From IMG/VR virus record IMGVR_UViG_2700989400_000004, positions 6,939-70,938 of that record: DNA of 64,000 nt, one strand, 5' to 3'. How positions within the stretch are numbered: position 1 is the stretch's first letter; each line of letters begins with the position of its first letter. The notes below the pieces were generated by a model, which had not been told where the DNA came from, did not search any database, and saw only the letters and a list, made by a program, of their open reading frames with translations. Shown one piece after another: positions 1,503 through 54,592 of the stretch. The translations under genes were made by a program, and so were the position numbers. The stretch comes from a virus (taxonomy: Duplodnaviria > Heunggongvirae > Uroviricota > Caudoviricetes).

Positions 1503-1860
1503 GGTGCACCTCCTGGCGAATACGGGCAGCGAATACCATCACGCAGCCATCAGGAGATTGCTGACGCGCTTCCTGTTCGCTGGTGGCCTCGATGTGAATT
1601 ACGCGCGGTTGTGCTGTGCTCAGGGCGATAAAACGCCAGATAAAATTGTTCTCGCATTTCTGAATAAACAGCGTGTTTTCTTCGCGCCCTTTCCATGTTG
1701 CCGAGATATAGCCCATGTCATTGAGCATCTCGCAGGCATCAACCAGCGTATCAGCGGCTACGTGTACAGTGTTTTTACCGTCAGCTATGCAATCACGGTG
1801 CACCGCCAGGAAGGTGTATATAAATTTAGGGTGAGTTTGGGTATGCTGTGTTCCAGCCAT
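1495..1860 (-). CDS. hypothetical protein (121 aa), internal start of the long 1495..3081 frame
   Basis: ATG at 1860 with GAGGT 7 nt upstream; protein-like translation MAGTQHTQTHPKFIYTFLAVHRDC...; the frame upstream of 1860 is low-complexity. Confidence 0.45.
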   Translation of the reverse strand: MAGTQHTQTHPKFIYTFLAVHRDCIADGKNTVHVAADTLVDACEMLNDMGYISATWKGREENTLFIQKCENNFIWRFIALSTAQPRVIHIEATSEQEARQQSPDGCVMVFAARIRQEVHHA

Positions 1861-1925
1861 AATCGTTACCTCGTTTAACGGTTTGGTTAGACGCCCTGCA
1901 TGTGTGCCACCACTGCGGGGCGTTG

Positions 1926-1960
1926 CTGTATATACACCACAATCATTAGTGTATATACAG
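1926..1960. promoter_or_regulatory. operator-like palindrome in divergent promoter region
   Basis: Perfect 12-bp inverted repeat CTGTATATACAC (1926-1937) / GTGTATATACAG (1949-1960) with 11-bp spacer, between divergent genes ending 1860 and starting 2051; further ACACACC/GGTGT repeats at 2000-2030. Confidence 0.4.
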
Positions 1961-2050
1961 ATTAGATTTAAGTGTGCTACAGTGTCAAGTGTTTTATCAA
2001 CACACCTTTTGGTGTAATGTGTACACACCTCAAAATAACCGGACATTCTG

Positions 2051-2356
2051 ATGGCAACAGGAAACATCAACAGCAGATCGCAAATGAAAAATATCCGCTT
2101 CCCCCATGATGTAATCGAGGAAATGGAAAATTCGAAAACGGAAGGGGAAACAATAGCCGCTTTCGTGATTACAGCCGTTCGCGGTGAAATCGCCCGCCGC
2201 CAGGCAGAAGGAAGCGGAGAAAATCCCCTGGTTTCTTCGCTCGATGCACTGGCGCAGGTGGAAAAAATCGGTGTCAAAGCAGCCGAGGAGATCGGGCAAC
2301 TCGTCACCGTCGCGCGTGAAGAACTCCAGCGGCGCAAGGCCAAAGAACAGGAGTAA
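2051..2356 (+). CDS. small regulator-like protein (possible ribbon-helix-helix), 101 aa
   Basis: Protein-like ORF (…NIRFPHDVIEEMEN…EIGQLVTVAREELQRRKAKEQE); N-terminal beta-strand/helix pattern resembles RHH proteins; weak RBS. Confidence 0.4.
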   Translation: MATGNINSRSQMKNIRFPHDVIEEMENSKTEGETIAAFVITAVRGEIARRQAEGSGENPLVSSLDALAQVEKIGVKAAEEIGQLVTVAREELQRRKAKEQE

Positions 2357-3073
2357 CCATCACCAGCGCCGTGGTGTGAGGAACTACGGTGCATCGTTTT
2401 ACAGGGCAGCGCCATGACCAACAAAGAATCAACCAATACACCATCACCGGCACGGAAAAGACAGCGCAGAAAGATAGCGTACGAGCATGAGTCAGACAGA
2501 TTCGCGCCCTGTGCGTTTATCCTTGAGAAATTCCTTAAAGAGTACAGGCGCACAAAAATGGGGTCGCATACCTGGAAAACATCGCGGCATGGCGATGTTA
2601 AAGAGCAGGAATAGCCCACCAGCAAGCCAGCATATTCACCATAATGACCCTCAGTTAAACCTAGAGTCATTGGTGCAAAGCTGACACATTGCCCACCAGC
2701 CGCAAATGTGGCATTGTTGGTGATGCGTTCAAGTATGTAGCTTTTCCACTGGCGGCTCTCTGCGGTCGCCTTTGTTTTATCCAGAACGAAATCAGACATC
2801 AGATTGATCAGCACCTGGCGACCTGACAAAATCGCATCAGTCGCGCCACCAGCAGTATTTTTTGCTTTCCGGACAGCTTGGCCAACTGCATTTTGCAGCA
2901 AAATATTCTGCATTTCTGGCTTACTGTGATAACAGTGATCAGCGCCTTCACTCTGTACGACCACAACGCTATAATCTGCCTCGTAGACAGTAAGCAATAT
3001 GGCGCAGTAAGCGACTTGTTCACAAAGGCGCTCCGGCAACGGGGCGCTTTTTCTTTTTGTAACGGTCAGAGCA

Positions 3074-3874
3074 TTACACATGGCTGTTTTCCTCCATGCG
3101 ACGGGCTAACCAACGCTGCGAAAGACGAATTAATTCAGCTTTCCGCTGGTGGTAGTCCTGGCCTAACTCAATCAGCGTGATATTGCTCTGCTCAAGGTAA
3201 GAAAGATGCTCAAGCTGCAACGTGCTCATGTGGTCGCGTGGTTCGCCTGTGATGCCGTTCGCCTGCGCCCACTGTTTTGCAGTCATGCCACCCAGCACGA
3301 TACGCGCCAGCATATTGGCTTCCGTGGTGTAGTGGTGCTGTAGAGTGTTTTTACCCAGCTCAGCCCGGTACGCCTCCAGCGCGGCACACATTGGCTTAAA
3401 GTAGCTGGCAACTGTGATACGGGCTTTCAGTTCCCGGCGTAACACTGCGGAACGCACTGGCGCTACCTTGTGTAGCTCCTCCTCGCATTTGATAAAGTAC
3501 TGACGAACGGCGCGGCCCTGTTCGGTGCGTTCGACCATCGCCAGTTCTTTCGCCATGTTCACTGTGATGATGTACTCAAGAGCTGTTTGCTGGCGAGATT
3601 TTGCGCTCACCGGATCGGGTCGGCTCAAATATTCAACAACCTCATAATCCACGCCTTCCGTGAACCCGTATTCTTCAATGCGCCCCTTGATCCACGAACG
3701 GAAAACGCGCCCTACACCTAACGCCTTATGTAACGCTCTGGCGCTAACAATAGTGGTTTCACGCCCACCAATAACGCCGGAAATAACCGGAATAATTTCA
3801 GCGAAATTTTGCAGATTCTGTTTTTCAGGCCGAACGAAGCCCCGCCCCTGTACAGGCGTATATCCAGTATTCAT
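3074..3874 (-). CDS. phage antirepressor-like protein (Ant/KilAC-type)
   Basis: 266-aa ORF with N-terminal motif ALHKALGV…FRSWIK…YGFTEGVDY typical of phage antirepressor N-domains; sits downstream of alpA in the island. Confidence 0.5.
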   Translation of the reverse strand: MNTGYTPVQGRGFVRPEKQNLQNFAEIIPVISGVIGGRETTIVSARALHKALGVGRVFRSWIKGRIEEYGFTEGVDYEVVEYLSRPDPVSAKSRQQTALEYIITVNMAKELAMVERTEQGRAVRQYFIKCEEELHKVAPVRSAVLRRELKARITVASYFKPMCAALEAYRAELGKNTLQHHYTTEANMLARIVLGGMTAKQWAQANGITGEPRDHMSTLQLEHLSYLEQSNITLIELGQDYHQRKAELIRLSQRWLARRMEENSHV

Positions 3875-3926
3875 GGTTAAATCTCTGTATTAGTGGATGG
3901 GAGGCGGCTGTGTGCCGCCAGCCTGA

Positions 3927-4115
3927 TTAGTGAACTGCCTCGCGGCTGTCCTTCCATGCCAGAACTTCGGATAAAGACCAGCCAACGGAACGACCACCGA
4001 GTTTACGCCGTGATGGGAATTGTCCGGCTTTTTCCAGGCGGTAGCGGCATGAACGGCTCAGGCCTGTAAGTTGCTGACATTCTTTTTCACGTATAAAGCG
4101 ATCTGTGCTTAACAC
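3927..4115 (-). CDS. alpA: AlpA-family phage transcriptional regulator
   Basis: 62 aa, GTG start with AGGGGGA SD; motif LTGLSRSCRYRLEKAGQFPSRRKLGGRSVGWSLSEVLAW matches AlpA/Vis HTH family; immediately downstream of integrase. Confidence 0.7.
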   Translation of the reverse strand: MLSTDRFIREKECQQLTGLSRSCRYRLEKAGQFPSRRKLGGRSVGWSLSEVLAWKDSREAVH

Positions 4116-4478
4116 AATTCCCCCTTTGTTGTTTCTTAAAGAGTCATTGGGTGGATTATTGGGTTGGGTCGGATTGTGTCAGGGTGTTTATGGAATGGCA
4201 AACACTGGTGGCGGTCGTTTTACAGAAGTGGGGTAATGAGAATAAAAACTTTTTTAATTCATTGTGATGCAGTAGCGTAAAATTCTGTTTTTACGCCCTT
4301 TTTTACATGCTTTTAAGAGTGATTCGCCAATGTACAAAAAGCCAGTAAAACGACTGAAAATCAACTTTTTAGGGTGTCGGTCAGATGATAATCAAGTTTG
4401 TTCCAGATTGTTCGCCGTTGTTCGTCGTGGTGTCTCGTTGTTTCACGTTGTGTCCGTTCTGAAAAATCGCGAAAAAAA

Positions 4479-5729
4479 TTATATTTCTCTGGCTATTGGC
4501 AGTGTGGTTACGTTTTCGTGAGCACCTGCCAGTATCTCTAATCGCTCTGTCCACATATCCAGCGCGTTACGTTTCGCATCAATATAGCGGGAGTGGTTAT
4601 AGACTCGTTGCATCCCTGGCATCTGGTGGGCGGTAAGTTGCTCGACAATATGCGGATCCACGCCTAAATCGTTCAGCATCGTGGTAAACGTGCGCCGTAT
4701 ATCGTGCAGGGACCAGTGAGGATGGTTTAATTTTTTGTGCGTAAATCTGCCGTATTGTGACACGCTGGCTTCCTGTTTCAGTTCTCCGAGTAATAACCCT
4801 GTGTGCCTGTTCTGCTCCACCAGTTGCGTGACGAACGGCAAAATGCTTTCCGGTATTGGCCTGAATATGGCGACCTTCGTTTTGCTGTGTTCTTTCGGTA
4901 CCGTCCAGAGCATTTCCTTAAAATCCCACTCCCTGATCTCCGACAGCCTCAGTTCTCCAGTTCGGCAGCCAAACACAATCAGGAGGCGGATTAGCGCGCT
5001 GTAGTAGGGCGGGAATATTTTTTTATCCAGCGCCTGTAATAATTCGCCCAGTTCTTTGTTACTAAGCACGCGTTCGCTTATGCCTGGCTTTTTGCCAACG
5101 TCCACCACGTTGAGATCATCCAGAACGTTACTGACTGCGTAGCGACGTTTTCGGCAGAACTTAAGCGCCTGTTTACACGCCTGCATCATGTGACCAGACG
5201 TTACAGGGGATTTTTTGCGTATCCGGTCAAAACAGGCCAGCCAGTGACGTAACTCGCATTTATCCAGTGGCATATTGCCAATATGCTGTATGACGTGATT
5301 ATTCAGGCGGCTGTTCAGGGAGACGTAATCGACACGGTTTTCCTTTACGTGCATTTCCAGCCAGTAGCTGATCGCATCACCCACCGTTACCGGCTTTAGT
5401 GCTTCCTGTATGGAGTAATTAAGCTCATGGCGTGGATTTTTTCCTTCTGCCAGCCATGCGCGACACTGTGCCGCTTTTTCCCTGGCTGCTTTCAGGCTCA
5501 GATCAGGATAATTTCCCAGCTTCAGGCGTTCCGGTGATACCAGGCGTCCAGCTCCTGCCCTGTAGGTGAAATACCAGGTTAACAAGCCGCTGGTGGAATG
5601 CCTGACGCTCAGGTTTCCACCGTCATTAAGAAATGTGGTTTTTGGGGCTGGTGTGCCGTTGATTTTTCTTAGCTGTGTATCGCTCAGTTTGTTAAGTGCT
5701 CTGCTCATAATTTTGAATCCGGTCATCAC
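4479..5729 (-). CDS. int: P4-type tyrosine integrase (site-specific recombinase)
   Basis: 416-aa ORF; N-terminal arm-type domain (LSDTQLRKINGTPAPK…YPDLSLKAAREKAAQCRAWLAEGKNP) and C-terminal catalytic domain (…HDIRRTFTTML…); GTG at 5729 or ATG at 5726. Confidence 0.85.
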   Translation of the reverse strand: MMTGFKIMSRALNKLSDTQLRKINGTPAPKTTFLNDGGNLSVRHSTSGLLTWYFTYRAGAGRLVSPERLKLGNYPDLSLKAAREKAAQCRAWLAEGKNPRHELNYSIQEALKPVTVGDAISYWLEMHVKENRVDYVSLNSRLNNHVIQHIGNMPLDKCELRHWLACFDRIRKKSPVTSGHMMQACKQALKFCRKRRYAVSNVLDDLNVVDVGKKPGISERVLSNKELGELLQALDKKIFPPYYSALIRLLIVFGCRTGELRLSEIREWDFKEMLWTVPKEHSKTKVAIFRPIPESILPFVTQLVEQNRHTGLLLGELKQEASVSQYGRFTHKKLNHPHWSLHDIRRTFTTMLNDLGVDPHIVEQLTAHQMPGMQRVYNHSRYIDAKRNALDMWTERLEILAGAHENVTTLPIAREI

Positions 5730-13630: not shown

Positions 13631-13663
13631 CGCAATGACTCCATTATGTTAATTAACGGAATA

Positions 13664-13678
13664 ATTCTACCATTTTGT
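13664..13678 (-). promoter_or_regulatory. conserved motif TTTTGTGATCTGYGT upstream of late gene (copy 1 of 3)
   Basis: Same 15-mer at 19964-19978 and (1 mismatch) 25932-25946, each under 50 nt upstream of a minus-strand start (tail fibre, L, tape measure). Confidence 0.35.
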
Positions 13679-13812
13679 GATCTGCGTTGCATTTTATGCT
13701 TGCACAAAATGTATTTATTGATTTATGCCAATACAATAAATCATTTACAGTGAATGTAACTTGCCACAATTTATGATGTAAATTATTGGCGTAAAAATAA
13801 AAACAATGCATA

Positions 13813-13836
13813 AAAACGGGGCTTATGCCCCGTTTT
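13813..13836. terminator. bidirectional intrinsic terminator after J
   Basis: Perfect hairpin CGGGGC-TTAT-GCCCCG flanked by T/A runs on both strands, immediately after the J stop. Confidence 0.5.
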
Positions 13837-13840
13837 ATTT

Positions 13841-19242: not shown

Positions 19243-19947
19243 TCACCCTACCTTGCTGGAACCAGGGAAACAGGCGATCGGTAGCGCTGCTGGACGCGGG
19301 AAACGTAAACGACAACCGCTTAGGCGGTGACTGCATCTATCTAAATTCAGATCATTGGTTGGTACATCCTTATCAGTAGCCACCGGACCGCCAGAATACA
19401 TACATCCATCGCCCCTATATTGCCATTGACAAACATCCGCCAGGATAGTCCGGCCTGGGATAATCGCTTTATCTGCGTCAATCGGCGTTGATAACTCATA
19501 CTGAACCTGATCTGCTGTTTCTTCTGCCATTGCTTCAATGACGTAAAAAGATACAGCCTCAATAGATGGATCTGCGTCTGGATTGCCGTTAGGGAAGTTA
19601 ACGGCGTCCAGGTATTTAACCTCCACCTGGCGGCGCGTAACCTTCATTCCTCTAAGGTCGTTGAAATCGTTATTCATCCCCGTAATGAGTCCGCCGATAT
19701 TGGCTACAGCCATTTGAGGACGTGAATAAACGCCCTCGTTTTTCATTTCGAAGCCAGTAGCCTCGATCGGGTAGCTGTTGTAAGTTAATCCCTTCCAGAT
19801 AACCGGGCCGTAATAGCCATTCGCGCCGGAATGGAAGCGGATAACCTCGCCACCCAGGGGCGACAAGTCCAGTTCGAACAAGTCAATCACCGCGCCCACA
19901 CCAGCGTCCACGGAATCAATAATCATCTCTGTAGGTATATTGCGCAT
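19243..19947 (-). CDS. L: minor tail protein (lambda L-like)
   Basis: C-terminal Cys motif (…CQWQYRGDGC…CSHRLSGC…) as in lambda L; ATG at 19947 with GAAGGTGAG SD. Confidence 0.7.
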   Translation of the reverse strand: MRNIPTEMIIDSVDAGVGAVIDLFELDLSPLGGEVIRFHSGANGYYGPVIWKGLTYNSYPIEATGFEMKNEGVYSRPQMAVANIGGLITGMNNDFNDLRGMKVTRRQVEVKYLDAVNFPNGNPDADPSIEAVSFYVIEAMAEETADQVQYELSTPIDADKAIIPGRTILADVCQWQYRGDGCMYSGGPVATDKDVPTNDLNLDRCSHRLSGCRLRFPRPAALPIACFPGSSKVG

Positions 19948-20076
19948 TTTCTCACCTTCTGATTTTGTGATCTGCGTCACGCTAAATCATACCAAAATGG
20001 ATTGATCGCGGTTTATACAATATGTATATTTTACTCAAACGGAAGCACAGTTAACAAAATGGCGCGGAGGTGTGAG

Positions 20077-20232
20077 ATGGCTGATAAGGTGTGGAGGTTG
20101 AAGGTATTCCTGTCAGGTGGCAGGGAAATGACTGTAGCTCTGTATAAAGACGAAGGCGAGGCACTGACTGACGCGCTATTACTCACTGAAGACGAACGCG
20201 TTTTGGGGTACAGAATCGAACCTGTCAAATGA
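20077..20232 (+). CDS. hypothetical protein (moron, 51 aa)
   Basis: Opposite strand to tail operon; GGAGGTG SD 6 nt before ATG. Confidence 0.4.
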   Translation: MADKVWRLKVFLSGGREMTVALYKDEGEALTDALLLTEDERVLGYRIEPVK

Positions 20233-20244
20233 GAGGTTAACGAA

Positions 20245-20592
20245 ATGCAAAAATATAGTCTTGATGTGTGGTTAAGTGGTTGCAAGGAGTGTTTCGGATT
20301 ATTTGATAGCGAAGAGGCAGCTTTGGAAGAAGGAAGGATTCTTGAATGTAGTTTAGGCCATCCAGTGAAATATGCCGCTAATCCGGTGCAGATAATTGAT
20401 GAGGTGGAAAACATGAACCCGAAAGATATTAACTTTAACGTCAATGTTGAATTTGCTGATTCTATGGATCAGTCTTGCCCTGGTGAAATACACGTAAAAG
20501 GTTTCCCGGCAGACGACATGAAAGCGAAACATGAATACGAAAAAGCGGCGAAAGATTTCTGCATCGACAATCTGAGCGCGTTTAATAAATAA
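20245..20592 (+). CDS. hypothetical protein (moron, 115 aa)
   Basis: GAGAGG SD; protein-like translation. Confidence 0.45.
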   Translation: MQKYSLDVWLSGCKECFGLFDSEEAALEEGRILECSLGHPVKYAANPVQIIDEVENMNPKDINFNVNVEFADSMDQSCPGEIHVKGFPADDMKAKHEYEKAAKDFCIDNLSAFNK

Positions 20593-20601
20593 GGCGGCAA
20601 T

Positions 20602-20850
20602 ATGGCGCGGCGTAATCACGGGGATTATGTGTACACGTTGAAACAAGCCGCCCGCCTTATTGGCTATCATGAGCATGAATTTATTGATTTGCTGATTGAG
20701 CGCGGGATTCTGTACCAGGTTTGTTTAACGTTGTACCCAAAAGCTAAATACCTACAGGAAAAATTATTCATCATCATGACGGATGAAAACCAAGTTAATC
20801 ATTCATTCGTCACTGACAGGGGCGTTAATTATCTGCGTGATAACTTATAG
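20602..20850 (+). CDS. hypothetical protein, possible HTH (moron, 82 aa)
   Basis: AAGG SD; helix-turn-helix-like stretch YTLKQAARLIGYHEHEFIDLLIERGIL. Confidence 0.45.
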   Translation: MARRNHGDYVYTLKQAARLIGYHEHEFIDLLIERGILYQVCLTLYPKAKYLQEKLFIIMTDENQVNHSFVTDRGVNYLRDNL

Positions 20851-20859
20851 GCGGTAATT

Positions 20860-20931
20860 ATGGATGAAGTAATCGAAAATGTTTTGGTAGTGGCTGGCGC
20901 GATTGCCATCGTTTATGCCTTTCTGAATTAA
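20860..20931 (+). CDS. micro-protein, single hydrophobic helix (23 aa)
   Basis: MDEVIENVLVVAGAIAIVYAFLN; AGGCGG SD. Confidence 0.3.
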   Translation: MDEVIENVLVVAGAIAIVYAFLN

Positions 20932-20942
20932 TGGGGTGAATC

Positions 20943-21080
20943 ATGAAAATTGAAGTTTTAGCACTAATAGCAATGGGCTTGATAGTATTTGGCGTGCACG
21001 CTGCGGATTGGGACTGGTGCGCAATAGCTGAGAACATGGCGCACGCTCACCCAATAGGCTTGATGCACATGAACTTCTAA
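20943..21080 (+). CDS. small exported or membrane-anchored His-rich peptide (45 aa)
   Basis: MKIEVLALIAMGLIVFGVHA / ADWDWCAIAENMAHAHPIGLMHMNF: signal-peptide-like N-terminus with VHA-A site; GGGGTGA SD. Confidence 0.4.
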   Translation: MKIEVLALIAMGLIVFGVHAADWDWCAIAENMAHAHPIGLMHMNF

Positions 21081-21084
21081 CACG

Positions 21085-21110
21085 AAAAACCCCGCTTCGG
21101 CGGGGTGTTA
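21085..21110. terminator. intrinsic terminator (UUCG tetraloop hairpin)
   Basis: CCCCGC-TTCG-GCGGGG; T-run on minus side, A-run on plus side. Confidence 0.45.
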
Positions 21111-21124
21111 TAGGTAGGTGAGAC

Positions 21125-21301
21125 ATGAAAGAAGGTGTGACTTATCAGCATGTGTATACATTTGAAATTTACCGCATATGTGATGGTTATGTTGAAGAGT
21201 ATAAAATCTTCCCCCGTGGATACTGGAAGAGAGTTAAGATTTCTGTAAGGTTATTAAAGAAAATGTTTAAAAGAGGATTAATTCAAGAAATTGATTTTTA
21301 G
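21125..21301 (+). CDS. hypothetical protein (moron, 58 aa)
   Basis: AGGTGAGA SD; basic C-terminal half. Confidence 0.4.
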   Translation: MKEGVTYQHVYTFEIYRICDGYVEEYKIFPRGYWKRVKISVRLLKKMFKRGLIQEIDF

Positions 21302-21617: not shown

Positions 21618-21971
21618 TTAATTCATCACTTGCTCAAACATCGCGGTTAGCGTGAATACGGGGCCATCCTTCGTCATGTTCCATTTTCGGCAGACAAAAA
21701 GCCTTTGCACTCCATCCATCGACGGCGACCAGTAAAACGCCTCGACCGCGCCGCGCGCCCGTAAAAACGCCTCCGCCTGGATCGCTGGATTGCCAGCGTC
21801 ACCGCATCCGGCGCTCGACCCCTTAAAAACCACGCTGTAATCGTCGAGCAAGGGATTAATCCCTTTAACCTGGCGTTGCTCATAGCCATCACCCAGCTTG
21901 ACGACCGACACGTTCGGCTCCCTGGTTACGCTGTAGCTACGCTGCGGCGTCCAGGTAAACACTTCCGGCAT
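21618..21971 (-). CDS. M: minor tail protein (lambda M-like)
   Basis: 117 aa; conserved …LGDGYEQRQVKGIN… and C-terminal …FEQVMN as in M-family proteins. Confidence 0.7.
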   Translation of the reverse strand: MPEVFTWTPQRSYSVTREPNVSVVKLGDGYEQRQVKGINPLLDDYSVVFKGSSAGCGDAGNPAIQAEAFLRARGAVEAFYWSPSMDGVQRLFVCRKWNMTKDGPVFTLTAMFEQVMN

Positions 21972-22004
21972 AATTCCCCCTATAAATTACATTTTGTATA
22001 CATC

Positions 22005-22030
22005 TTTACGCGCTTCTACGCGAAAAATGA
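22005..22030 (-). promoter_or_regulatory. conserved ~26-nt element upstream of M (copy 1 of 2)
   Basis: TTTACGCGCTTCTACGCGAAAAATGA here vs TTTACGCGTTGCTACGCGGAAAATAG at 35175-35200 upstream of portal; both followed (minus orientation) by SATGTATWCA then the start codon. Confidence 0.35.
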
Positions 22031-22140
22031 GAACTTCATCACAAGAATTATAACCAGTTTACAAAATGGCTTCACACAGGACGCAACAAGATGTATACAG
22101 AAAGCAAGAAGAAAAGCAGTACCAACAAAGGAGGCCCAAG

Positions 22141-22308
22141 ATGAAACGCAACGATAAACACTACGCGGTCGTAATGCTTAATAACGCATTTGAACAAGTA
22201 GAAGTGGCGATCGTTAAAGGCTTTGATGATGCATTCAAAATGGGCCAGTTCTACATGAACGTGAAGGAAAACGAATACCGGGATTTCTACCTGAAAGCGG
22301 TCAACTAA
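22141..22308 (+). CDS. hypothetical protein (moron, 55 aa)
   Basis: Strong AGGAGG SD 8 nt before ATG at 22141. Confidence 0.4.
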   Translation: MKRNDKHYAVVMLNNAFEQVEVAIVKGFDDAFKMGQFYMNVKENEYRDFYLKAVN

Positions 22309-22325
22309 GGATGATGGGGTGAGCT

Positions 22326-22580
22326 ATGAAACTGGTAGCGATTGATAAAAATTTGAAGGTACAGAAAAACGCGCAGGACCGGATCATCAAAAAGGGTAAG
22401 GCTTTATTAAATGCTTTCCTGAAAAAAGAAGCTCACCCCAAAAAGTTACGCGATGGTTACGGTTATAAATTTGATATCAACCCCGATTGGCGGTTATTCA
22501 GCGATGATTTGAAGGTGTGGTTAATTATCGAGCATCATTATTATAATGTTAAATGTGGGGTTAAGGGGGCGCATAAATGA
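22326..22580 (+). CDS. hypothetical protein (moron, 84 aa)
   Basis: GGGGTGAG SD; lysine-rich protein-like ORF. Confidence 0.45.
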   Translation: MKLVAIDKNLKVQKNAQDRIIKKGKALLNAFLKKEAHPKKLRDGYGYKFDINPDWRLFSDDLKVWLIIEHHYYNVKCGVKGAHK

Positions 22581-22814
22581 GATGGCGTGAATTACATAGC
22601 TACGGCATCCGGTTTTCCCTGGTTGTCCTGAAAGATTGGTTTAATCGCCAGGTGGCAAACGATGCGTTAATCCCGTTTGCTGATAACAAGCCTTATAAGC
22701 GCGATGGGGTGAGATATGGAAGATGATAAATTTACATGGCGGGAGATCTGGAATATTTGGCAGGTAATTTTCGGAAGGGGATATATTGCGCGGAATGGTC
22801 GATTGTAGAGGTAA

Positions 22815-22997
22815 ATGATGATTATTCATGAAACGGAAGAATGTCGGCGGATTAATCTTAGTATTGAGTATGACGAAAGATTATGGCTTGAAAGCGACTG
22901 CGAAATAATCGTAATAGACAAAAAGCAAGCCGCCGAACTGATAAGCGCATTACAGCTTTATGTAAACAACGAATTTAAAAATGACGAAGTTGAATAA
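22815..22997 (+). CDS. hypothetical acidic protein (moron, 60 aa)
   Basis: GAGGT SD; followed by terminator. Confidence 0.4.
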   Translation: MMIIHETEECRRINLSIEYDERLWLESDCEIIVIDKKQAAELISALQLYVNNEFKNDEVE

Positions 22998-23003
22998 AGA
23001 AAA

Positions 23004-23040
23004 CCCCCAGCTTTCGCCGGGGGTATTATTTTATTTTTTG
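23004..23040. terminator. bidirectional terminator between moron island and tape-measure gene
   Basis: CCCCC…GGGGG hairpin followed by tattattttattttttg. Confidence 0.4.
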
Positions 23041-25916
23041 CGCGGTTGTAACATGCCACCGGGGCGTGTGCTTTGTTCCCTAACTACCCCCATAGCCACG
23101 CGTTTCATTGTGTCTTCAAGTCTGCGGCTATCCTCATCACTAAAACCGTTTGTCGTTTGAACGGTAATACTAACAGGCATGTTGATGCTGCCACCACCGC
23201 CCAAGTCGCGGTTAGGAGTAATACGCCCACCTTCACCGGGGATTATGTACTGTTTCCCGCCAGTAGTGGTAAACAGCTCCGGTTTACCGTGCTCACCAAC
23301 CCTATAAAGATTGCCGCCATTAACCGCACCGCCGTTGTAGCGTCCGCCACCGAAAATGGACGTCGCCAGCGACATGATTGCAGACAATGCCGCCGCACCA
23401 GCCGCCGCCCAGCTACCGCCAGTTGCCGCCGCCGTCGCCGCCGCCGCCGGGGCCGCCGCCGCTGCAATCTGACCTTGCGCCGCTACCGCGCCCGCCGTGG
23501 TGCTGGCTTGCGTTGCCTTGCTCTGACTTTCCATCATGATTTGGTCGGCTATCCAGTTTGCTGCAATCTGAGATAAGCGGTTGCCTACCGTGCCGAGAAT
23601 GTTGCTACCCAGGTTAGCAAACATCTCGCTTAGGGATTGTGTGCCGTTGAGCAATCCGGTAATGGCGTTACCCATGCCGCTTGTTAAGCCGTTGACGCAA
23701 TCGCCGATAAGCGCGTTAGTGTCGCTTTGCGCTTGCCATTGCTCCCACTTAAGCGCGGTTAGCTGTTGTTCATAGGCTAACTCTTCCATTTTCAATTGGG
23801 CCTGTGTAGCGCCTAAATCAGTGAGCATTTGCTTTCTGATAGTCCATTCATTTTGCAACTGCTGAATAGGGTCTACCTGGCCTTTTTTCTTGTCTTCATC
23901 AGAAACAAGGCTATCCCATTTGGCTTGTTGTTCTTCCTCGCGTAGCTGTTTCAGCGTGTCAGACAACGCCTTGCTTGCGCCCTCCTTCGCGGCTGTATAT
24001 TCCAGATAAGTGATCTTACCTTGCTTGTACGCTGCATCCAGGGCTTTTTGTTCTTCGCCAAGTTTACGCATAGCGGCGGCGTCTTTGTTGTACTGGTCGG
24101 AAATATTTAAGCCTTCATCGCCTAACTTATCCCAATCGGATTTTTTCGACTTCTTGCCCTTCCCGTCCTTGCCGCCACTGCCACCGCTGCCGCTTCCCGT
24201 TCCGGTTGGTTTCGGCGGAACATATGTACCATTAATACGGGCTTGTGCTTCGTCGGCTTTCTCGTTGGCTTTTTCAAGGTTTTTATTAGCCGTGTCTAAC
24301 TTACCTTCTAAGGTCTTCTGAGTATCCCCGGCGACACCTAGCGCCGCTTTTGCAGGTCCGGCAATTTCTGGATCATCACTCTGCGCTAATTTTTCCAGGA
24401 TGGCGCGGTTTTTCACCATGCGATCCAGTTCGGCTTTTGCCTTCCGGGCGTTTTCCTCAATGTCTTTGAGTTGTTTGTTTATCTCAATCAAAGCCGCTTC
24501 CAGTTCATTTTTGCTCATATCGTCGAACGACATAGCCAATTCGTCGATTTTGGCTTTTGCGTTGGCGGCTTTCTCTTCAGTGCTTTCCATGTTAAGGATA
24601 AGCGTACCCAGGCAGATCGCAGCGGTCATGATTGCGCCAGCGGGGCCACCAAGTAACCCTAACGCGCCATTGAAGATCCGCATCCCGATGCTGGCGGCTT
24701 TTGCTGCTGTACCGGACGCAACGATTGCCGCGTTAGCCGTGGTGGCAGCGGTGCGCATAGTCGTGTAAGCGGCGGCGGTTTGCGCTTGCGCTACACGGAG
24801 GCGAGCAAGCGCGGCGGTGTGGGCGTTTGTACCCTGCGCGGCCTGGTAGTGGGCGCGGGCCTCCCCTTCTGCCTGCAATGCTGCTTTAAGTCCGGCGGCG
24901 GCTGTGTGTAGCTGCTGGCGTGCCAGGTTGGCTTCTGCTGCTGCCTGCTGCGCGGCGGCCTGTGCTGCTTTCTGGTTGGCGGCTGCCAGCCGGATGTTTT
25001 CCGCCGTTGCCTGGATGATGCCACCTAACGCCCGTCCACCCATTACAGCACCAAGTGCAATGGCGGAGGCGGTTACAACGTCCAGGTTTTCAGATAGGGT
25101 GATCAGCGTGCTGTTAAACGCGTTAATCCCGCTACGGATCACAGAGTTTTCACCAAAATACTTAGTCGCGTTGTTGGTGGCAACTGTGAAGGCATCCGAC
25201 ATAGTGATCGCCATATTGTCGAACTCTTTATCTACTTCGGACTTCATCGCCCGGACCGCTGCGATAATTATATCTTTCGTGATCTTGCCGTCCTTCGCCA
25301 TTTCACGCAATGCGGTACTGGATACGCCCATTGATTTTGCGATACCTTCCGCCAGGCGTGGCGCGTTCTCCATTACGCTATTGAATTCATCGCCGCGCAA
25401 TTCACCAGATCCCAAGGCCTGGGCCAATTGTCTGATCCCGCCTTCCATTTCGCTTGCGGATGCGCCGGACACCTGAAAGGATTTGTTAATCGTTTCCACG
25501 ATGCTTGCCAGGTCACGCCCGCTTAGTCCGCTGTCACGCGTTGCGCGTTCCAATTTGGAGTAAAGCGCGGCGGTCGCATCCAGTGGTGACATTGATTTCT
25601 GTGCGGCCTTAAAAACCCGGTTTGTAACTTCTTCCAGTGATTCATTTGACCGGACGGAGTTAACCAGCTTGTTGTTTACTTCTTGCCAGGCGTTGGCGTA
25701 CTCAATGATCTTTCTTGTCACCAATGCCGCACCAACCGCGCGGGCAACCGTGGATAGGCTCGCCAGGGATTTACTTGCCTTATCAGCGGCGGTGTCTACC
25801 CGTTGCAGGTCTTTTTCCATCGCTCCGGTTGCCTTGTCTACTTCTTTCTGTGCAACCAGTAGCGATCCGGTTTTGGCGTCGATCGTGTATTCAATCGCGC
25901 CTACATTTTTAGCCAT
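23031..25916 (-). CDS. tail tape measure protein
   Basis: ~960-aa coiled-coil Ala/Gln-rich ORF with Gly-rich segment; ATG at 25916 (MAKNVGAIEY…) with CGGAGA SD. Confidence 0.8.
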   Translation of the reverse strand: MAKNVGAIEYTIDAKTGSLLVAQKEVDKATGAMEKDLQRVDTAADKASKSLASLSTVARAVGAALVTRKIIEYANAWQEVNNKLVNSVRSNESLEEVTNRVFKAAQKSMSPLDATAALYSKLERATRDSGLSGRDLASIVETINKSFQVSGASASEMEGGIRQLAQALGSGELRGDEFNSVMENAPRLAEGIAKSMGVSSTALREMAKDGKITKDIIIAAVRAMKSEVDKEFDNMAITMSDAFTVATNNATKYFGENSVIRSGINAFNSTLITLSENLDVVTASAIALGAVMGGRALGGIIQATAENIRLAAANQKAAQAAAQQAAAEANLARQQLHTAAAGLKAALQAEGEARAHYQAAQGTNAHTAALARLRVAQAQTAAAYTTMRTAATTANAAIVASGTAAKAASIGMRIFNGALGLLGGPAGAIMTAAICLGTLILNMESTEEKAANAKAKIDELAMSFDDMSKNELEAALIEINKQLKDIEENARKAKAELDRMVKNRAILEKLAQSDDPEIAGPAKAALGVAGDTQKTLEGKLDTANKNLEKANEKADEAQARINGTYVPPKPTGTGSGSGGSGGKDGKGKKSKKSDWDKLGDEGLNISDQYNKDAAAMRKLGEEQKALDAAYKQGKITYLEYTAAKEGASKALSDTLKQLREEEQQAKWDSLVSDEDKKKGQVDPIQQLQNEWTIRKQMLTDLGATQAQLKMEELAYEQQLTALKWEQWQAQSDTNALIGDCVNGLTSGMGNAITGLLNGTQSLSEMFANLGSNILGTVGNRLSQIAANWIADQIMMESQSKATQASTTAGAVAAQGQIAAAAAPAAAATAAATGGSWAAAGAAALSAIMSLATSIFGGGRYNGGAVNGGNLYRVGEHGKPELFTTTGGKQYIIPGEGGRITPNRDLGGGGSINMPVSITVQTTNGFSDEDSRRLEDTMKRVAMGVVREQSTRPGGMLQPRKK

Positions 25917-26046
25917 AGCGTTGATCTCCGTTTTTGTGATCTGTGTAACTATTTTATACAAAATGGCTTTGCTTTAACGACTCCATTTTGTATAAAGAAG
26001 CCATAGGGAATAGGTAGTTAAACAAACAAGTTAAGTGGGGTGGGTT

Positions 26047-26229
26047 ATGAACGTATACGAAGCCATCAGAAATATTAGAAATATCGAGAAAAATGTAGGT
26101 AACGAGGCGGCGCAAGAAGAATGCAAAATGTACATGAAGAAGCTACCACGCCGTGAACAATTTGTTTTGGGTGGCCCTAGCCTAGCGATGGAATTCGCAA
26201 GATTAAGAAAAGAAATGCTCAATAACTAA
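26047..26229 (+). CDS. hypothetical protein (moron, 60 aa)
   Basis: GTGGGGTGG SD; charged helical peptide upstream of lipoprotein gene. Confidence 0.4.
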   Translation: MNVYEAIRNIRNIEKNVGNEAAQEECKMYMKKLPRREQFVLGGPSLAMEFARLRKEMLNN

Positions 26230-26247
26230 TATTTAACTGGGTGAAAC

Positions 26248-26985
26248 ATGAAAAACGTAATTAAAGCGGCTCTTATTGGTGTTATGGCTTTCGGTCTTGT
26301 AGGTTGCGCACCTTCATATTCAGAGCAAGTAAAAGCAATAGAAAAAGGCGTGCTAATGCTGGATAAAACGGGGGTTAACAAGGATGCATGGAAAGTAAAA
26401 GCAGATGATTATGTCGCCGATTGCAACAACCTTAAGAGATACAAAGGAAAAACAGGTGAAACCGCCGTACTATTATGCGAACTAATCATCAAAGAAGATG
26501 AACTAACAGAAAGCGGACTATATACAAGCGCGGCTAACCTCGGCGTCGATATAGCGGGCCTTTATGATGTACTAAGTAATAAAAATTCAGCCGCTGCATT
26601 ATCAGCCGAACGTGTAGCAAAACTTGTGATAAGTGCTAATAAGTCAGCATTTCGCAATAGACAACAAGTTATAGAAAATGAATGCCGCGGCTTTATGGAT
26701 AAAAACTTTAAAGGCTGGAGTGAGTTAAACCCTATAGATGACGAAATTTATAATAATTGCCGGAATGCCGCAATGTTCTCTGATGAAAGCAAAAACAGAA
26801 TGGGGAGCATAATTTCTACAACGCTCGCATATAGAGTAAGACACCTCGATCAAAAAACAAAAACAAATGTATTAACTAACGCATTCATAGCAGTTCAGGC
26901 AGGCTGGAGTATAGGGAATGGATATCACGCCGTAAAACCGACTCCGGCAGAACTACAAGCGATTGCGCTACGCGATGCAAAGTGA
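26248..26985 (+). CDS. lipoprotein (moron, 245 aa)
   Basis: Signal peptide plus lipobox MKNVIKAALIGVMAFGLVGC; GGGTGA SD; opposite strand to tail operon; followed by strong terminator. Confidence 0.6.
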   Translation: MKNVIKAALIGVMAFGLVGCAPSYSEQVKAIEKGVLMLDKTGVNKDAWKVKADDYVADCNNLKRYKGKTGETAVLLCELIIKEDELTESGLYTSAANLGVDIAGLYDVLSNKNSAAALSAERVAKLVISANKSAFRNRQQVIENECRGFMDKNFKGWSELNPIDDEIYNNCRNAAMFSDESKNRMGSIISTTLAYRVRHLDQKTKTNVLTNAFIAVQAGWSIGNGYHAVKPTPAELQAIALRDAK

Positions 26986-26992
26986 CACAAAC

Positions 26993-27017
26993 GCCCGGTT
27001 AATTCCGGGCTTTTTTC
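26993..27017 (+). terminator. intrinsic terminator after lipoprotein gene
   Basis: Perfect GCCCGG-TTAATT-CCGGGC stem-loop followed by T6. Confidence 0.55.
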
Positions 27018-27691
27018 TGTTTTAATTTTTTCATTCTTTCCAGTGCCTTTCTTGCGGCCTGCATCCCATCGTCATAAGCCTTTTTATCTATGGCGGCATC
27101 TGGTCGTCTTTTCTCGTTTTTCGCTTCTGGCGGCGTTTTAGCGCGTACAGCGGCCCTATATCCGGTCATGGTCATGGCCCATGCTTCTGATTCAGATAAT
27201 CCCAGGTGAGCAACGGCGGAATAAACGTAATCAAGAACATCGAACGTTGATTTATATTCCCCTTCCTGCTTATCAGTTTGTTGTTTGCTGCCGGGAATAT
27301 CACCGATTAAACCGTGGTACATGCAATGCTGCGCCAGCGTGATGACGTCCTGAGTTGGCAGCAAGCCAGGGCGTAAACGTAATTTACCCGCCGGAGTAAA
27401 TCTACATTCGCCCACCAGCGGCCCTATTTCGCTTTCTGCGCATGATTTCAGGATGTGTATAGACGTTTGCACCAGTTCACCATAACACCGCGCCAAAACC
27501 CGTTTACGAAGCTCTGGATCGGTAGGGAAGATCTTCGGATACCTTCCACCATGAACAATGGCAAAGTAGCGCACCAGTTCGGAATCATCACCGATCCGCG
27601 CCATAGCTGCGAAGGATGGATTAAATATATATGCGCGACCATCAACCTTAATTTCAAATTGTCCAGTTCGAACATGAATCATAATCATCAC
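26999..27691 (-). CDS. putative tail assembly chaperone
   Basis: 230-aa ORF immediately upstream (in transcription order) of tape measure; basic C-terminal tail. Confidence 0.4.
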   Translation of the reverse strand: MMIMIHVRTGQFEIKVDGRAYIFNPSFAAMARIGDDSELVRYFAIVHGGRYPKIFPTDPELRKRVLARCYGELVQTSIHILKSCAESEIGPLVGECRFTPAGKLRLRPGLLPTQDVITLAQHCMYHGLIGDIPGSKQQTDKQEGEYKSTFDVLDYVYSAVAHLGLSESEAWAMTMTGYRAAVRAKTPPEAKNEKRRPDAAIDKKAYDDGMQAARKALERMKKLKQKKARN

Positions 27692-27727: not shown

Positions 27728-28240
27728 TTATTCGACTGGTGTCTCTTGTTCAGTTCCGGCGTCTTCCTCTGCCGGGAGATCATCGACGGTTACTTGTCCG
27801 GCGCTGGAACATTCGATCGACCAGGTGCAAGCGTCATCATGCGGATCGTCTTCCTCAAAGTTGGTGCAAAGGAATGGACCCTCGGTCACGTCCACCGGGG
27901 AAACCATTTTCAACCACACATAAGGCTGTCCACCAGTGGCTTCGCCTGGATTAATGGTATGACGTTTCAATGCCTTCTGGTTGTAGATCTCTTCGGTACG
28001 GGATACGCCATCACCGGAGAAAGAAACAGATTTGTAAGTTACCAATGATTCCTTAGTGTAATCAGCGGATTTGTCAGCGGTGGCATCTGCGACTTCCCAT
28101 TCGACGGAAAGCGTTTTACCGCGCATCATGCCAAGCTCTAAATAATCTTCATCCGCTGGCTTCGCGTTAGGGCAAGCAATAGCGAAAAACACCGCGACGT
28201 CGCGCCCTGTGAATGCGCCTTTCTGGCAAGTTGTAGACAT
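27728..28240 (-). CDS. putative major tail (tube) protein
   Basis: 170-aa ORF in major-tail position; acidic C-terminus. Confidence 0.45.
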   Translation of the reverse strand: MSTTCQKGAFTGRDVAVFFAIACPNAKPADEDYLELGMMRGKTLSVEWEVADATADKSADYTKESLVTYKSVSFSGDGVSRTEEIYNQKALKRHTINPGEATGGQPYVWLKMVSPVDVTEGPFLCTNFEEDDPHDDACTWSIECSSAGQVTVDDLPAEEDAGTEQETPVE

Positions 28241-39286: not shown

Positions 39287-39769
39287 CTATTTCTGTCTTG
39301 TGCATTGTGTTCGTATGTAGTTTTGTAGTTCAGTTATTTTTGCATCTTTCTGTGCTAACCCTTCTCTGAGGGATAGATAATTTGATTGAGCGCTGGCAGT
39401 AGGTCTACAGGTGGCTCCATCAATGCGGCCGGTGGTTCCGGCGGGATCGGACACTCGCACAGGTATTGCGTTGACGTGCAACCGGATAGCACCGCTATCA
39501 ATACCAGCACGCAGATCAGCAATGTCGGACCTGATAGCTTTAATTTCATCGTGATACCTCTTATCAAGTTTTGACAGTTCGGCGTTTCGCTCCTTCATTT
39601 GCTGTATGGTGTTACTCGCTGTTTTTAATGCGCCTTGCGTCGTCGTTAGTTCTTCCTGTAAGCGCGTTACAGCTCCCTGTGTCTGACATAGTGCAGCGGT
39701 AAGCCCGACGATAATGCAAACAACCACGGCGATGATTAACGCCTTTATCTTGTCCACGTTTCCCCCCAT
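39287..39769 (-). CDS. Rz: i-spanin Rz
   Basis: 160 aa; N-terminal TM anchor then coiled-coil; last gene of lysis cassette with Rz1 embedded in +1 frame. Confidence 0.7.
39355..39549 (-). CDS. Rz1: o-spanin Rz1 (lipoprotein embedded within Rz)
   Basis: [24 protein letters not shown] lipobox then Pro-rich mature part (…[19 protein letters not shown]…); entirely inside Rz in another frame. Confidence 0.6.
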   Translation of the reverse strand: MKLKLSGPTLLICVLVLIAVLSGCTSTQYLCECPIPPEPPAALMEPPVDLLPALNQIIYPSEKG

Positions 39770-46689: not shown

Positions 46690-46852
46690 AATTTGATCTC
46701 CTTCTGTTAGGCGATGTGTTTCCGCATTTCAGCGGGGCCGGATTTTTAAAGAGCATTTCGTTTGATTGCAGTATACAAAATGGATGCACCTGGACAAAGT
46801 AAAAAGCGCCATTATGTGACGCTAATCACACAATGACGCCATTTTGTAAACT

Positions 46853-54443: not shown

Positions 54444-54592
54444 TATTTGATCTCCTTCGCTGTTAACACTACGTATAAGGCTTTATTCGCGGCGCTCCAC
54501 ATTTCGGCATCGTGAAGCATTTCCGCTACTGCCAGTTTGAATTGAAGCGCCTGAATAACCATAATGTCACCTCCGATTGTATACATTTTGTA

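What the first reader, a model, noticed from the sequence alone, without database searches (positions are those of the whole stretch)
26030..27020. Lipoprotein moron with upstream partner gene between tail chaperone and tape measure
A 245-aa lipoprotein (lipobox LVGC) and a preceding 60-aa gene are transcribed against the tail operon and end at a perfect terminator. Prophage lipoproteins at such positions often act in superinfection exclusion by masking receptors or blocking DNA entry; this one has no family I recognise.
Basis: partly seen in the sequence, partly recalled or inferred. Interest (0 to 1): 0.6.

Follow-up and report, generated by a model that had tools for sequence, protein, structure and literature searches.

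The report
Orphan lipoprotein moron in prophage tail operon
An E. coli prophage carries, wedged backwards between two tail genes, a self-contained swappable gene cassette encoding a rare outer-membrane lipoprotein of unknown family. It most likely helps the lysogen keep other phages out, which makes it a new example of a familiar kind of prophage add-on and not a new kind of system.

Summary
Window 26047-26229 (60 aa) and 26248-26985 (245 aa, signal peptide ending in lipobox LVGC) lie on the + strand. They sit between the tape-measure gene and the DUF6246 gene at the chaperone position, both on the - strand, and end at a strong terminator.

Both genes are under purifying selection (dN/dS 0.08 and 0.19). 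GC is 40% against 47-54% in the flanks.

The prophage belongs to the mEp021-like "mEpimmI" coliphage group. In all 40 related loci surveyed this slot holds reverse-strand cargo. The promoter-like palindrome upstream is strongly conserved throughout, and a similar terminator hairpin closes the cassette in the loci read. The cargo itself is interchangeable and mostly exported. A sister prophage at the same chromosomal site differs only by replacement of 26019-26986.

The lipoprotein family is tiny: four clusters among 5.8 billion proteins, no Pfam, PHROG, NCBIfam, PADLOC or PDB match, and no confident fold.

The 60-aa gene is not a dedicated partner. It precedes three different cargos, and the lipoprotein occurs without it.

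Superinfection exclusion is the best-supported function by analogy: HK97 gp15 sits in the same slot, and mEpimmI Lpp lipoproteins have been tested. It remains untested for this protein. Verdict: a new member of a known kind, of moderate-to-low interest.

The parts
25935..25950 (+). CRP-like site TGTGATCTGTGTAACT. The left half TGTGA(T) is invariant in all related loci; the right half is degenerate.
   Evidence: Alignment of 33 distinct upstream regions. A near-consensus paralogue, TGTGATCTGCGTCACG, lies at 19965-19980 before another reverse-strand island (D10). The same spacing to CATTTTGTATA follows a perfect CRP consensus near 46770. A role for CRP is inference only.
25953..25996 (.). Perfect 14-bp inverted repeat TTTATACAAAATGG-N16-CCATTTTGTATAAA. 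The right arm carries a -10-like TATAAA (25991-25996) facing the cassette, and the left arm carries the mirror copy facing the tape-measure gene.
   Evidence: I11. The arms are almost invariant while the loop varies across 33 distinct upstream regions from the 40 surveyed loci plus L048 and L049, although the neighbouring TMP N-termini are only ~30% identical. The motif is over-represented in the window: 11 hits against 3.5 expected, with 0 of 100 shuffles reaching 11.
26019..26986 (+). The exchangeable cassette, comprising the 5' UTR, leader gene and lipoprotein gene.
   Evidence: The RM9245 prophage is ~95% identical up to 26018 and again from 26987. The stretch between is replaced there by a VasI-like lipoprotein gene.
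26047..26229 (+). 60-aa cytoplasmic leader gene with no signal peptide. It is an independent module, not a dedicated partner.
   Evidence: dN/dS 0.08. Homologues of 60 aa occur in the same slot ahead of other cargos. No family match.
26248..26985 (+). 245-aa prolipoprotein. Signal peptide is residues 1-19, lipobox LVGC, Cys20 at 26305-26307. The mature part is predicted all-helical and has four further conserved Cys (C59, C77, C146, C171).
   Evidence: conservation; dN/dS 0.19; helical, low-confidence models.
26993..27016 (+). Intrinsic terminator of the cassette. On the other strand, its A-run, first arm and loop encode the last codons (KKARN-stop) of the DUF6246 gene.
   Evidence: A similar hairpin is present in L003 and L008, and terminators are annotated at this position in mEp010, mEp013 and mEp021.
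23031..25916 (-). Tape measure protein gene (flank). The likely start is the ATG at 25916, with GGAG upstream.
   Evidence: PF20155 and phrog_1107; sequence read.
26999..27691 (-). DUF6246 / phrog_791 gene at the tail-assembly-chaperone position (flank).
   Evidence: PF19759, E 4e-53. In mEp021 the orthologue gp62 is not labelled a virion structural protein, while several nearby genes (gp56-58, gp60) are.

Best explanation
This is a moron: an independent, horizontally exchanged transcription unit set antisense into the tail operon of an mEp021-like (mEpimmI) E. coli prophage, between the DUF6246 chaperone-position gene and the tape-measure gene.

Shown by sequence: a conserved promoter-like palindrome; a shared 5' UTR; a 60-aa leader gene; a 245-aa prolipoprotein gene; and a terminator that overlaps the stop region of the DUF6246 gene. 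The unit 26019-26986 is one of at least nine alternative cargos found in this slot in related phages.

Inferred: the unit is transcribed from the repressed prophage. The precursor is exported by Sec, lipidated at Cys20 and cleaved by signal peptidase II. Because residue +2 is Ala and not Asp, the Lol system sorts it to the inner leaflet of the outer membrane. There it folds as a ~25-kDa helical periplasmic domain, probably with two disulfides.

Most likely function, by analogy only: it alters the envelope so that incoming phages cannot complete entry (superinfection exclusion). It could do this by binding an outer-membrane receptor from the periplasmic side, as Cor, Llp and the mEpimmI Lpp proteins are thought to do, or by interfering with the periplasmic stage of tail-tip or DNA passage.
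For: Anatomy and reality of the genes.

Cassette replacement between sister prophages at the same abg-adjacent chromosomal site.

Slot survey: all 40 loci with DUF6246 and TMP carry 0.65-1.3 kb of reverse-strand cargo. Most cargo families are exported. They include a VasI-like lipoprotein (PF11319, 62 bits) in 20 loci, a 124-aa lipoprotein in 10, three Sec-secreted families, and a membrane pair. This points to an envelope-directed role for the slot as a whole.

The signal-peptide coding segment 26239-26310 is shared at 83-85% nucleotide identity with an unrelated lipoprotein gene in the same slot.

Precedents: HK97 gp15, the first moron described, lies between the chaperone and tape-measure genes and blocks DNA entry (PMC3594210). 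In the mEpimmI group itself, Lpp021 and Lpp010 exclude OmpA- and LamB-dependent phages (PMC11893012).

This prophage has no lipoprotein ORF in the J/fibre gap, where mEp021 and mEp010 carry those genes. Apart from the Rz1-like spanin, the 245-aa protein is its only lipoprotein.
Against: There is no functional data for this protein or for any cargo of this slot in this phage group.

The mature protein is three to four times larger than every characterised enterobacterial exclusion lipoprotein and shares nothing with them beyond the signal peptide.

Its carriers have very different tape-measure N-termini (100%, 34% and 28% identity to the window's), and the same TMP type carries a different cargo in RM9245. 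The cargo therefore does not co-vary with the TMP, which argues against a TMP-specific mechanism.

Promoter activity in the lysogen is not shown. The consensus scan found no canonical sigma-70 site on the + strand.

The structure models are unreliable (pLDDT 39-45).
Confidence: 0.45

Rival explanations
1. The lipoprotein is a host-fitness factor directed at threats other than phages. It would protect the envelope against colicins, type VI effectors, lysozyme or serum, in the way Bor, Iss and TraT confer serum resistance or periplasmic lipoprotein immunity proteins neutralise effectors.
For: The commonest alternative cargo of the same slot is a lipoprotein of the VasI family, a type VI secretion accessory family (PF11319). 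The protein is periplasm-facing and disulfide-bearing, as many immunity proteins are. Cargo type is uncoupled from the phage's own TMP. The Bor, TraT and Iss parallels rest on general knowledge.
Against: No similarity to any known immunity, TraT or Bor family. No toxin or effector gene is adjacent. The only tested lipoproteins of this phage group act against phages (PMC11893012).
Confidence: 0.25
2. The protein serves the phage's own lytic cycle. For example, it could mask receptors on lysing cells and debris so that progeny are not wasted, as proposed for T5 Llp, or it could modulate lysis or the envelope late in infection.
For: The gene lies inside the late structural region. Receptor masking at lysis is an accepted role for T5 Llp (general knowledge).
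Against: The unit is antisense to the late operon, so late transcription cannot express it. It has its own promoter-like element and terminator. It is replaced by unrelated cargo in sister phages that are presumably viable, so it is not needed for growth.
Confidence: 0.1
3. The cassette is a decaying or neutral passenger with no current function, or the ORFs are chance reading frames.
For: The family is extremely rare: four clusters in 5.8 billion proteins, absent from 5,426 complete E. coli genomes and 50,697 phage records. Near-identical copies give uninformative dN/dS values of 0.7-1.7 on a handful of changes.
Against: dN/dS is 0.19 at dS 0.65 for the lipoprotein and 0.08 at dS 1.3 for the leader gene. 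Homologues at 27-32% identity keep the length, the lipobox, four Cys and the C-terminal motif IGNGYxxVKPT..LQ..LR.
Confidence: 0.05
4. It is a structural or assembly component of the tail.
For: Only its position between tail genes.
Against: Opposite strand, a lipoprotein export signal, foreign GC content, and replacement by unrelated genes in sister phages. No tail family match.
Confidence: 0.02

Closest known systems
HK97 gp15 moron (YebO-like inner-membrane superinfection-exclusion protein)
   Same: It occupies the same slot, between the tail-assembly-chaperone gene(s) and the tape-measure gene. It has its own terminator, is envelope-located and is prophage-expressed (PMC3594210).
   Different: gp15 is 62 aa, an inner-membrane protein and not a lipoprotein, and is encoded on the same strand as the tail genes. 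BLASTP finds no alignment with either window protein.
mEpimmI exclusion lipoproteins Lpp021 (mEp021 gp81) and Lpp010 (mEp010 gp116)
   Same: Same phage group. Both are reverse-strand genes inside the tail gene cluster, have a lipobox signal peptide of similar style (MKNVFKVVLFAAAVALTGC against MKNVIKAALIGVMAFGLVGC), and lack Asp at +2. Exclusion was shown experimentally (PMC11893012).
   Different: They are 72 and 82 aa against 245 aa, and are encoded immediately after gene J, not between chaperone and TMP. The mature parts are unrelated. The window prophage has no gene at that J-adjacent position.
Cor (phi80, N15, mEp167) and Llp (T5) FhuA-blocking lipoproteins
   Same: Phage-encoded outer-membrane lipoproteins that inactivate a receptor (general knowledge; Cor is cited in PMC3594210).
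   Different: They are small (about 60-80 aa) and unrelated in sequence. No Pfam or PHROG family was shared. Their receptor is known; here no target is known.
VasI/TagO-like lipoprotein cargo of sister prophages (PF11319; phrog_1848)
   Same: Same slot, and similar upstream palindrome, 5' UTR, signal-peptide style and terminator hairpin. In RM9245 it sits at the same chromosomal site with ~95% identical flanks.
   Different: The mature domain is unrelated; BLASTP and profile comparison align only residues 1-21. Its function is also unknown.
TraT and Bor/Iss (mobile-element outer-membrane lipoproteins)
   Same: Lipoproteins carried by mobile elements that change the cell surface for exclusion or serum resistance. 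The TraT precursor is of similar size (general knowledge).
   Different: No Pfam, NCBIfam or PDB sequence hit to these families at E <= 1.

Membership tests
Bacterial lipoprotein (Lgt/LspA substrate) | N-terminal signal peptide with a positively charged n-region, a hydrophobic h-region and a lipobox [LVI][ASTVI][GAS]C | tested here: met
   MKNVIK-AALIGVMAFG-LVGC. The lipobox Cys is invariant in all five family clusters.
Bacterial lipoprotein (Lgt/LspA substrate) | Actual diacylglyceryl modification and signal peptidase II cleavage | not testable with these tools
   Needs palmitate labelling, globomycin treatment and a C20A mutant.
Bacterial lipoprotein (Lgt/LspA substrate) | Outer-membrane sorting (no Asp at +2 in E. 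coli) | tested here: met
   Residue +2 is Ala in the window protein, and Val or Ala in homologues. Localisation itself is inferred.
Moron (Juhala/Hendrix sense) | Extra gene(s) present in one phage and absent or replaced in close relatives | tested here: met
   26019-26986 is replaced in the RM9245 prophage, whose flanks are ~95% identical. At least nine alternative cargos were found in 40 loci.
Moron (Juhala/Hendrix sense) | Own terminator | tested here: met
Moron (Juhala/Hendrix sense) | Own promoter, active in the lysogen | tested here: inconclusive
   A conserved -10-like TATAAA lies within an invariant palindrome, but the sigma-70 scan found no canonical site on the + strand. Expression cannot be tested here.
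Moron (Juhala/Hendrix sense) | Base composition different from the neighbours | tested here: met
   40.5% GC against 47-54%.
Known phage exclusion lipoproteins (mEpimmI Lpp021/Lpp010; Cor/Llp type) | Sequence homology of the mature protein | tested here: not met
   Only the signal peptide aligns with Lpp021 and Lpp010. No family hit.
Known phage exclusion lipoproteins (mEpimmI Lpp021/Lpp010; Cor/Llp type) | Exclusion phenotype on plating | not testable with these tools
   Needs an experiment.
HK97 gp15 / YebO family | Sequence homology | tested here: not met
   No BLASTP alignment at E <= 100 for either window protein.
HK97 gp15 / YebO family | Position between the chaperone and tape-measure genes | tested here: met
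   Here the unit is on the opposite strand.
VasI/TagO (PF11319, TIGR03360) | Match to the family profile | tested here: not met
   No hit for the window protein. The cargo in sister prophages does match PF11319.
Known anti-phage defence proteins (PADLOC-DB) | Match to any defence-system profile | tested here: not met
   No hit at E <= 1 for either window protein or for P0005.

The most novel reading that the evidence does not exclude
The DUF6246/tape-measure junction of mEpimmI phages may be a dedicated 'envelope-effector bay'. In it, a fixed expression chassis is reloaded by recombination with unrelated exported proteins. The chassis would consist of the palindromic promoter with a CRP-like site, a common 5' UTR, a shared signal-peptide segment, and a terminator built into the end of the chaperone-position gene.

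On this reading the 245-aa protein founds a new family of large outer-membrane lipoproteins. It would block phage entry, or another envelope attack, by a mechanism different from the small Cor/Llp/Lpp receptor blockers, for example by acting on the periplasmic stage of tail-tip or DNA passage.
Probability: 0.2. Interest if true: 0.6.

Novelty: new member of a known kind. Interest (0 to 1): 0.35.

Why it matters
If the lipoprotein excludes phages, it adds an unrelated, much larger protein family to the short list of envelope-level exclusion factors in E. coli. It would also fill the gap in a prophage that lacks the J-adjacent exclusion lipoprotein of its relatives.

The slot itself is more generally useful. 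It offers a conserved promoter and terminator framing at least nine interchangeable, mostly exported cargos, including VasI-like lipoproteins. That is a ready-made list of candidate envelope-acting prophage genes in a phage group reported to be as common in human gut isolates as lambdoid phages (PMC11893012). None of the slot's cargos has been tested.

Tried and rejected
- **Structure prediction.** Alignments of 3 and 5 sequences gave pLDDT 39.5 and 44.5.
- **Exhaustive HMMER search.** It gave one real distant relative (P0003). It also gave a 1,355-aa ankyrin-repeat protein whose score is inflated by its repeats, which I rejected.
- **GTDB species-representative scan.** It found no relative. 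The tblastn searches of phage and plasmid collections with the window protein and with P0005 found none either.
- **Internal duplication.** Profile comparison of the N-half against the C-half was negative.
- **Remote homology between the slot cargos.** An apparent 99.9% hit to the 124-aa lipoprotein was an artefact: my blast-based grouping had pulled the 245-aa proteins into that alignment through the shared signal peptide. After correction only residues 1-25 align.
- **Rfam scan of 19-29 kb.** Only sub-threshold noise, none of it in the cassette.
- **The palindrome as an RNA hairpin.** It folds, but z is only -0.65 on the + strand and -1.8 on the - strand. The arms are invariant without covariation, which fits a DNA site better than an RNA structure.
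- **Co-variation of cargo with TMP type.** None was seen. Co-variation with the J receptor-binding domain could not be tested, because the fetched loci do not reach the J C-terminus.
Full report
**1. The observation.** Window 26248..26985 encodes 245 aa beginning MKNVIKAALIGVMAFGLVGC|APSY. It has two lysines, a 12-residue hydrophobic core and the lipobox L-V-G-C, with Cys20 at 26305-26307. Window 26047..26229 encodes 60 aa from an ATG preceded by GGGGTGGG. A GTG at 26035 is possible, but all homologues start at MNVYEA.

On the - strand the neighbours are:
- the tape measure protein, 23031..~25916 (PF20155, E 1e-59; phrog_1107);
- a DUF6246 / phrog_791 protein, 26999..27691;
- the tail tube protein, 27728..28240.

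DUF6246 is the 'chaperone' only by position and by a sub-threshold Phage_TAC_6 hit. In the mEp021 record its orthologue gp62 is not labelled a virion structural protein, while several nearby genes are.

The terminator GCCCGG-TTAATT-CCGGGC-T6 (26993-27016) folds at -14.4 kcal/mol, z -3.6. On the opposite strand its A-run, first arm and loop are the last codons (KKARN-stop) of the DUF6246 gene.

**2. The genes are real and foreign.** Against an 80%-identical homologue (L003) the lipoprotein gene has dN 0.126, dS 0.650 and dN/dS 0.19. Against an 83%-identical homologue (L047) the 60-aa gene has dN/dS 0.08. The unit has 40.5% GC, against 54% (TMP), 47% (DUF6246) and 51% (tube). It is one of three low-GC, skew-inverted islands in the tail region, at about 20.0-21.4 kb, 22.0-23.0 kb and 26.0-27.0 kb.

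**3. Host and phage.** The left flank carries abgA, abgB and abgT and is 100% identical to E. coli RM9245 and other E. coli. The DUF6246 protein is 67-73% identical to those of phages mEp021, mEp010, mEp013, mEp044, mEp515 and mEp554. These define the Nus-dependent, non-lambdoid 'mEpimmI' group, and the RM9245 prophage is listed in that paper's supplement (PMC11893012).

RM9245 has a prophage at the same site. Its DNA is ~95% identical to the window up to 26018 and again from 26987. Between those points it carries a 203-aa lipoprotein of the VasI family in place of the window's two genes. The exchanged unit is therefore 26019-26986, which is essentially the stretch between the promoter-like region and the terminator.

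**4. The slot is a cargo bay.** I fetched 38 IMG/VR loci with the DUF6246 protein and added the loci already in hand. In each I located the TMP start and called ORFs in the gap. All 40 loci with both landmarks have 0.65-1.3 kb of reverse-strand cargo.

| Cargo cluster | Loci | Targeting |
|---|---|---|
| VasI-like lipoprotein (PF11319, 62 bits) | 20 | lipoprotein |
| 124-aa lipoprotein (sub-threshold BamE-like motif) | 10 | lipoprotein |
| 137-aa protein | 8 | Sec signal peptide |
| 106-aa protein | 8 | no signal peptide |
| 116-aa protein | 5 | Sec signal peptide |
| 35-aa + 100-aa pair | 5 | membrane |
| 245-aa lipoprotein | 3 (plus L049) | lipoprotein |
| 165-aa protein | 1 | Sec signal peptide |
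| Small leader genes of 74 and 60 aa | 2 and 1 | cytoplasmic |

Sources. Most cargo is thus envelope-directed.

Profile comparisons show the mature domains are unrelated to each other. Only the signal peptides align. The segment 26239-26310 (RBS plus signal peptide) is 83-85% identical at nucleotide level to the start of the unrelated 124-aa lipoprotein gene in 14 complete E. coli genomes. This suggests recombination within the signal-peptide coding region.

**5. The lipoprotein family.** It is very small. Two clusters were found with the single sequence (98% and 80% identity). Two more were found with a profile (P0003 and P0005, 27-32% identity), out of 5.8 billion proteins. The exhaustive HMMER scan of 1.84 billion representatives added nothing real.

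The gene is absent from 5,426 complete E. coli genomes, 50,697 phage records, PLSDB plasmids and GTDB species representatives. The exact protein exists in a handful of draft E. coli assemblies as 'hypothetical protein'.

All members keep the lipobox, four further cysteines (C59, C77, C146, C171), a GLY..A..GVD.AG motif and the C-terminal IGNGYxxVKPT..LQ..LR.

The distant subfamily lies in the other junction of the same gene, between the major tail protein and DUF6246. It is again antisense, in phages whose DUF6246 is only ~30% identical. It has a different promoter region, a tandem TGTTGACGTAGATT repeat, but a similar 5' UTR, and it is followed by a 47-aa phrog_17424 gene.

Structure prediction failed (pLDDT 39.5 and 44.5, all-helical) and fold searches were uninformative.

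**6. The 'partner'.** The evidence that the 60-aa gene is not a dedicated partner is as follows:
- it precedes the 245-aa gene in the window;
- it precedes a 35+100-aa membrane pair in L047;
- it precedes a different secreted protein in L048;
- it is truncated to 35 aa before an intact 245-aa gene in L049;
- L004 has the lipoprotein with no leader gene;
- L003 has an unrelated 74-aa gene in that place.

It is a conserved, independently assorting leader module of unknown function.

**7. The control region.** Across 33 distinct upstream sequences the block TGTGATC-N8-CTATTTTATACAAAATGG-N16-CCATTTTGTATAAAG (window 25935-25997) is almost invariant, although the adjacent TMP N-termini are only ~30% identical between subgroups. 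It contains a perfect 14-bp inverted repeat (I11). The arms are conserved without covariation and the loop varies. Predicted RNA folding is unremarkable. I therefore read it as a DNA element: two mirror copies of a -10-like TTTTGTATAAA, one facing the cassette and one facing the TMP gene.

The motif is over-represented in the window, with 11 hits against 3.5 expected. It recurs at other intergenic places, including 21990 before the second reverse-strand island. At 46770 it sits 32 nt downstream of a perfect CRP consensus, TGTGATTAGCGTCACA. The spacing from TGTGATCTGTGTAACT in the lipoprotein moron is 33 nt. A near-consensus TGTGATCTGCGTCACG also precedes the first island (D10). That geometry would put a CRP dimer near -60, as in class I promoters. 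This is inference from consensus matches, and the sigma-70 scan found no canonical + strand promoter here.

**8. What it most likely does.**

*Shown:* a foreign, selectively maintained, independently terminated unit that encodes a protein with a conserved lipoprotein signal, in a slot that collects exported proteins.

*Inferred from established rules:* Sec export, lipidation at Cys20, signal peptidase II cleavage, and Lol sorting to the outer membrane because +2 is Ala.

*Inferred by analogy:* superinfection exclusion. Two precedents bear on it. HK97 gp15, the first moron described, sits between the chaperone and tape-measure genes and blocks DNA entry from the inner membrane (PMC3594210). In the mEpimmI group itself, Lpp021 and Lpp010, expressed from a plasmid, excluded the OmpA- and LamB-dependent phages respectively (PMC11893012).

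Those two genes lie just after J on the reverse strand. The window prophage has only 210 nt and no lipoprotein ORF at that position. The 245-aa protein is therefore its only lipoprotein apart from the Rz1-like spanin at 39355-39549.

Against a simple transfer of function: the protein is 3-4 times larger than the tested ones and unrelated to them, and its occurrence does not track TMP type. I put about 0.45 on exclusion and 0.25 on a non-phage envelope-protection role. The VasI-like sister cargo keeps that second option open. Small weights go to a lytic-cycle role, a neutral passenger or a tail component.

**9. Verdict.** The moron and lipoprotein readings are supported. The 'partner gene' reading is not. 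The exclusion function is plausible but untested.

In kind this is a familiar object, a prophage moron encoding an envelope lipoprotein. The protein family is undescribed and very rare. The most interesting by-product is the slot: a conserved expression chassis with interchangeable exported cargos in a common gut coliphage group.

Noticed in passing
window 19962-21301: A first reverse-strand, low-GC island lies between the minor tail genes L (19243-19980) and M (21618-21971). It starts after a near-consensus CRP site, TGTGATCTGCGTCACG (19965-19980), and includes an 82-aa KilAC-type antirepressor-like ORF (20602-20850, PF03374).
   Followed up: partly
window 21990-22997: A second reverse-strand island lies between M and the tape-measure gene. 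CATTTTGTATACA at 21990 is followed by an 80-aa ORF, an 84-aa ParE-like toxin ORF (22326-22580, PF24732) and two small ORFs. This is a possible toxin-antitoxin pair inside the tail operon. The same arrangement is annotated in RM9245 and M1/5.
   Followed up: partly
window 13631-13840: The gap between gene J and the side tail fibre gene has no lipoprotein ORF. mEp021 and mEp010 carry their experimentally tested exclusion lipoproteins (72 and 82 aa) at this position.
   Followed up: yes
window 46725-46782 (- strand): A perfect CRP consensus, TGTGATTAGCGTCACA, lies 32 nt upstream of CATTTTGTATACT. This is the same layout as in front of the lipoprotein cassette. Similar motifs occur at 54584, 55237 (near the CI-like repressor gene 55358-56005), 59082 and 63207.
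   Followed up: partly
L001 6145-6756; L002 5108-5767; L008 2840-3499: The commonest cargo of the slot in relatives is a lipoprotein matching the type VI secretion accessory family VasI (PF11319), which RefSeq names 'TagO'. A phage-borne VasI-like lipoprotein has no obvious explanation.
   Followed up: partly
L004 2531-2637: This contig carries a second copy of the conserved promoter element on the other side of the DUF6246 gene, ahead of an 81-aa + strand ORF. The element is therefore portable between the two junctions of that gene.
   Followed up: no
L005 1100-1150; L007 480-520: The distant subfamily of the lipoprotein is preceded by a tandem direct repeat TGTTGACGTAGATT(T/C)A, not by the palindrome. 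It still shares the GCCATAGGGAA...GGTGGGTTATG 5' UTR seen in the window.
   Followed up: no
window 1495-5729: To the left of abgR there are an integrase gene (4479-5729), an AntA-domain protein (3074-3874) and a 528-aa ORF with no family. This seems to be a separate integrated element, not part of the prophage studied here.
   Followed up: no
window 26993-27010 (- strand): The cassette terminator hairpin also forms in the late (- strand) transcript, between the DUF6246 and tape-measure genes, followed by GTTTGTGT. Terminators on both strands are annotated at this position in mEp010. It might attenuate late transcription unless it is antiterminated.
   Followed up: no
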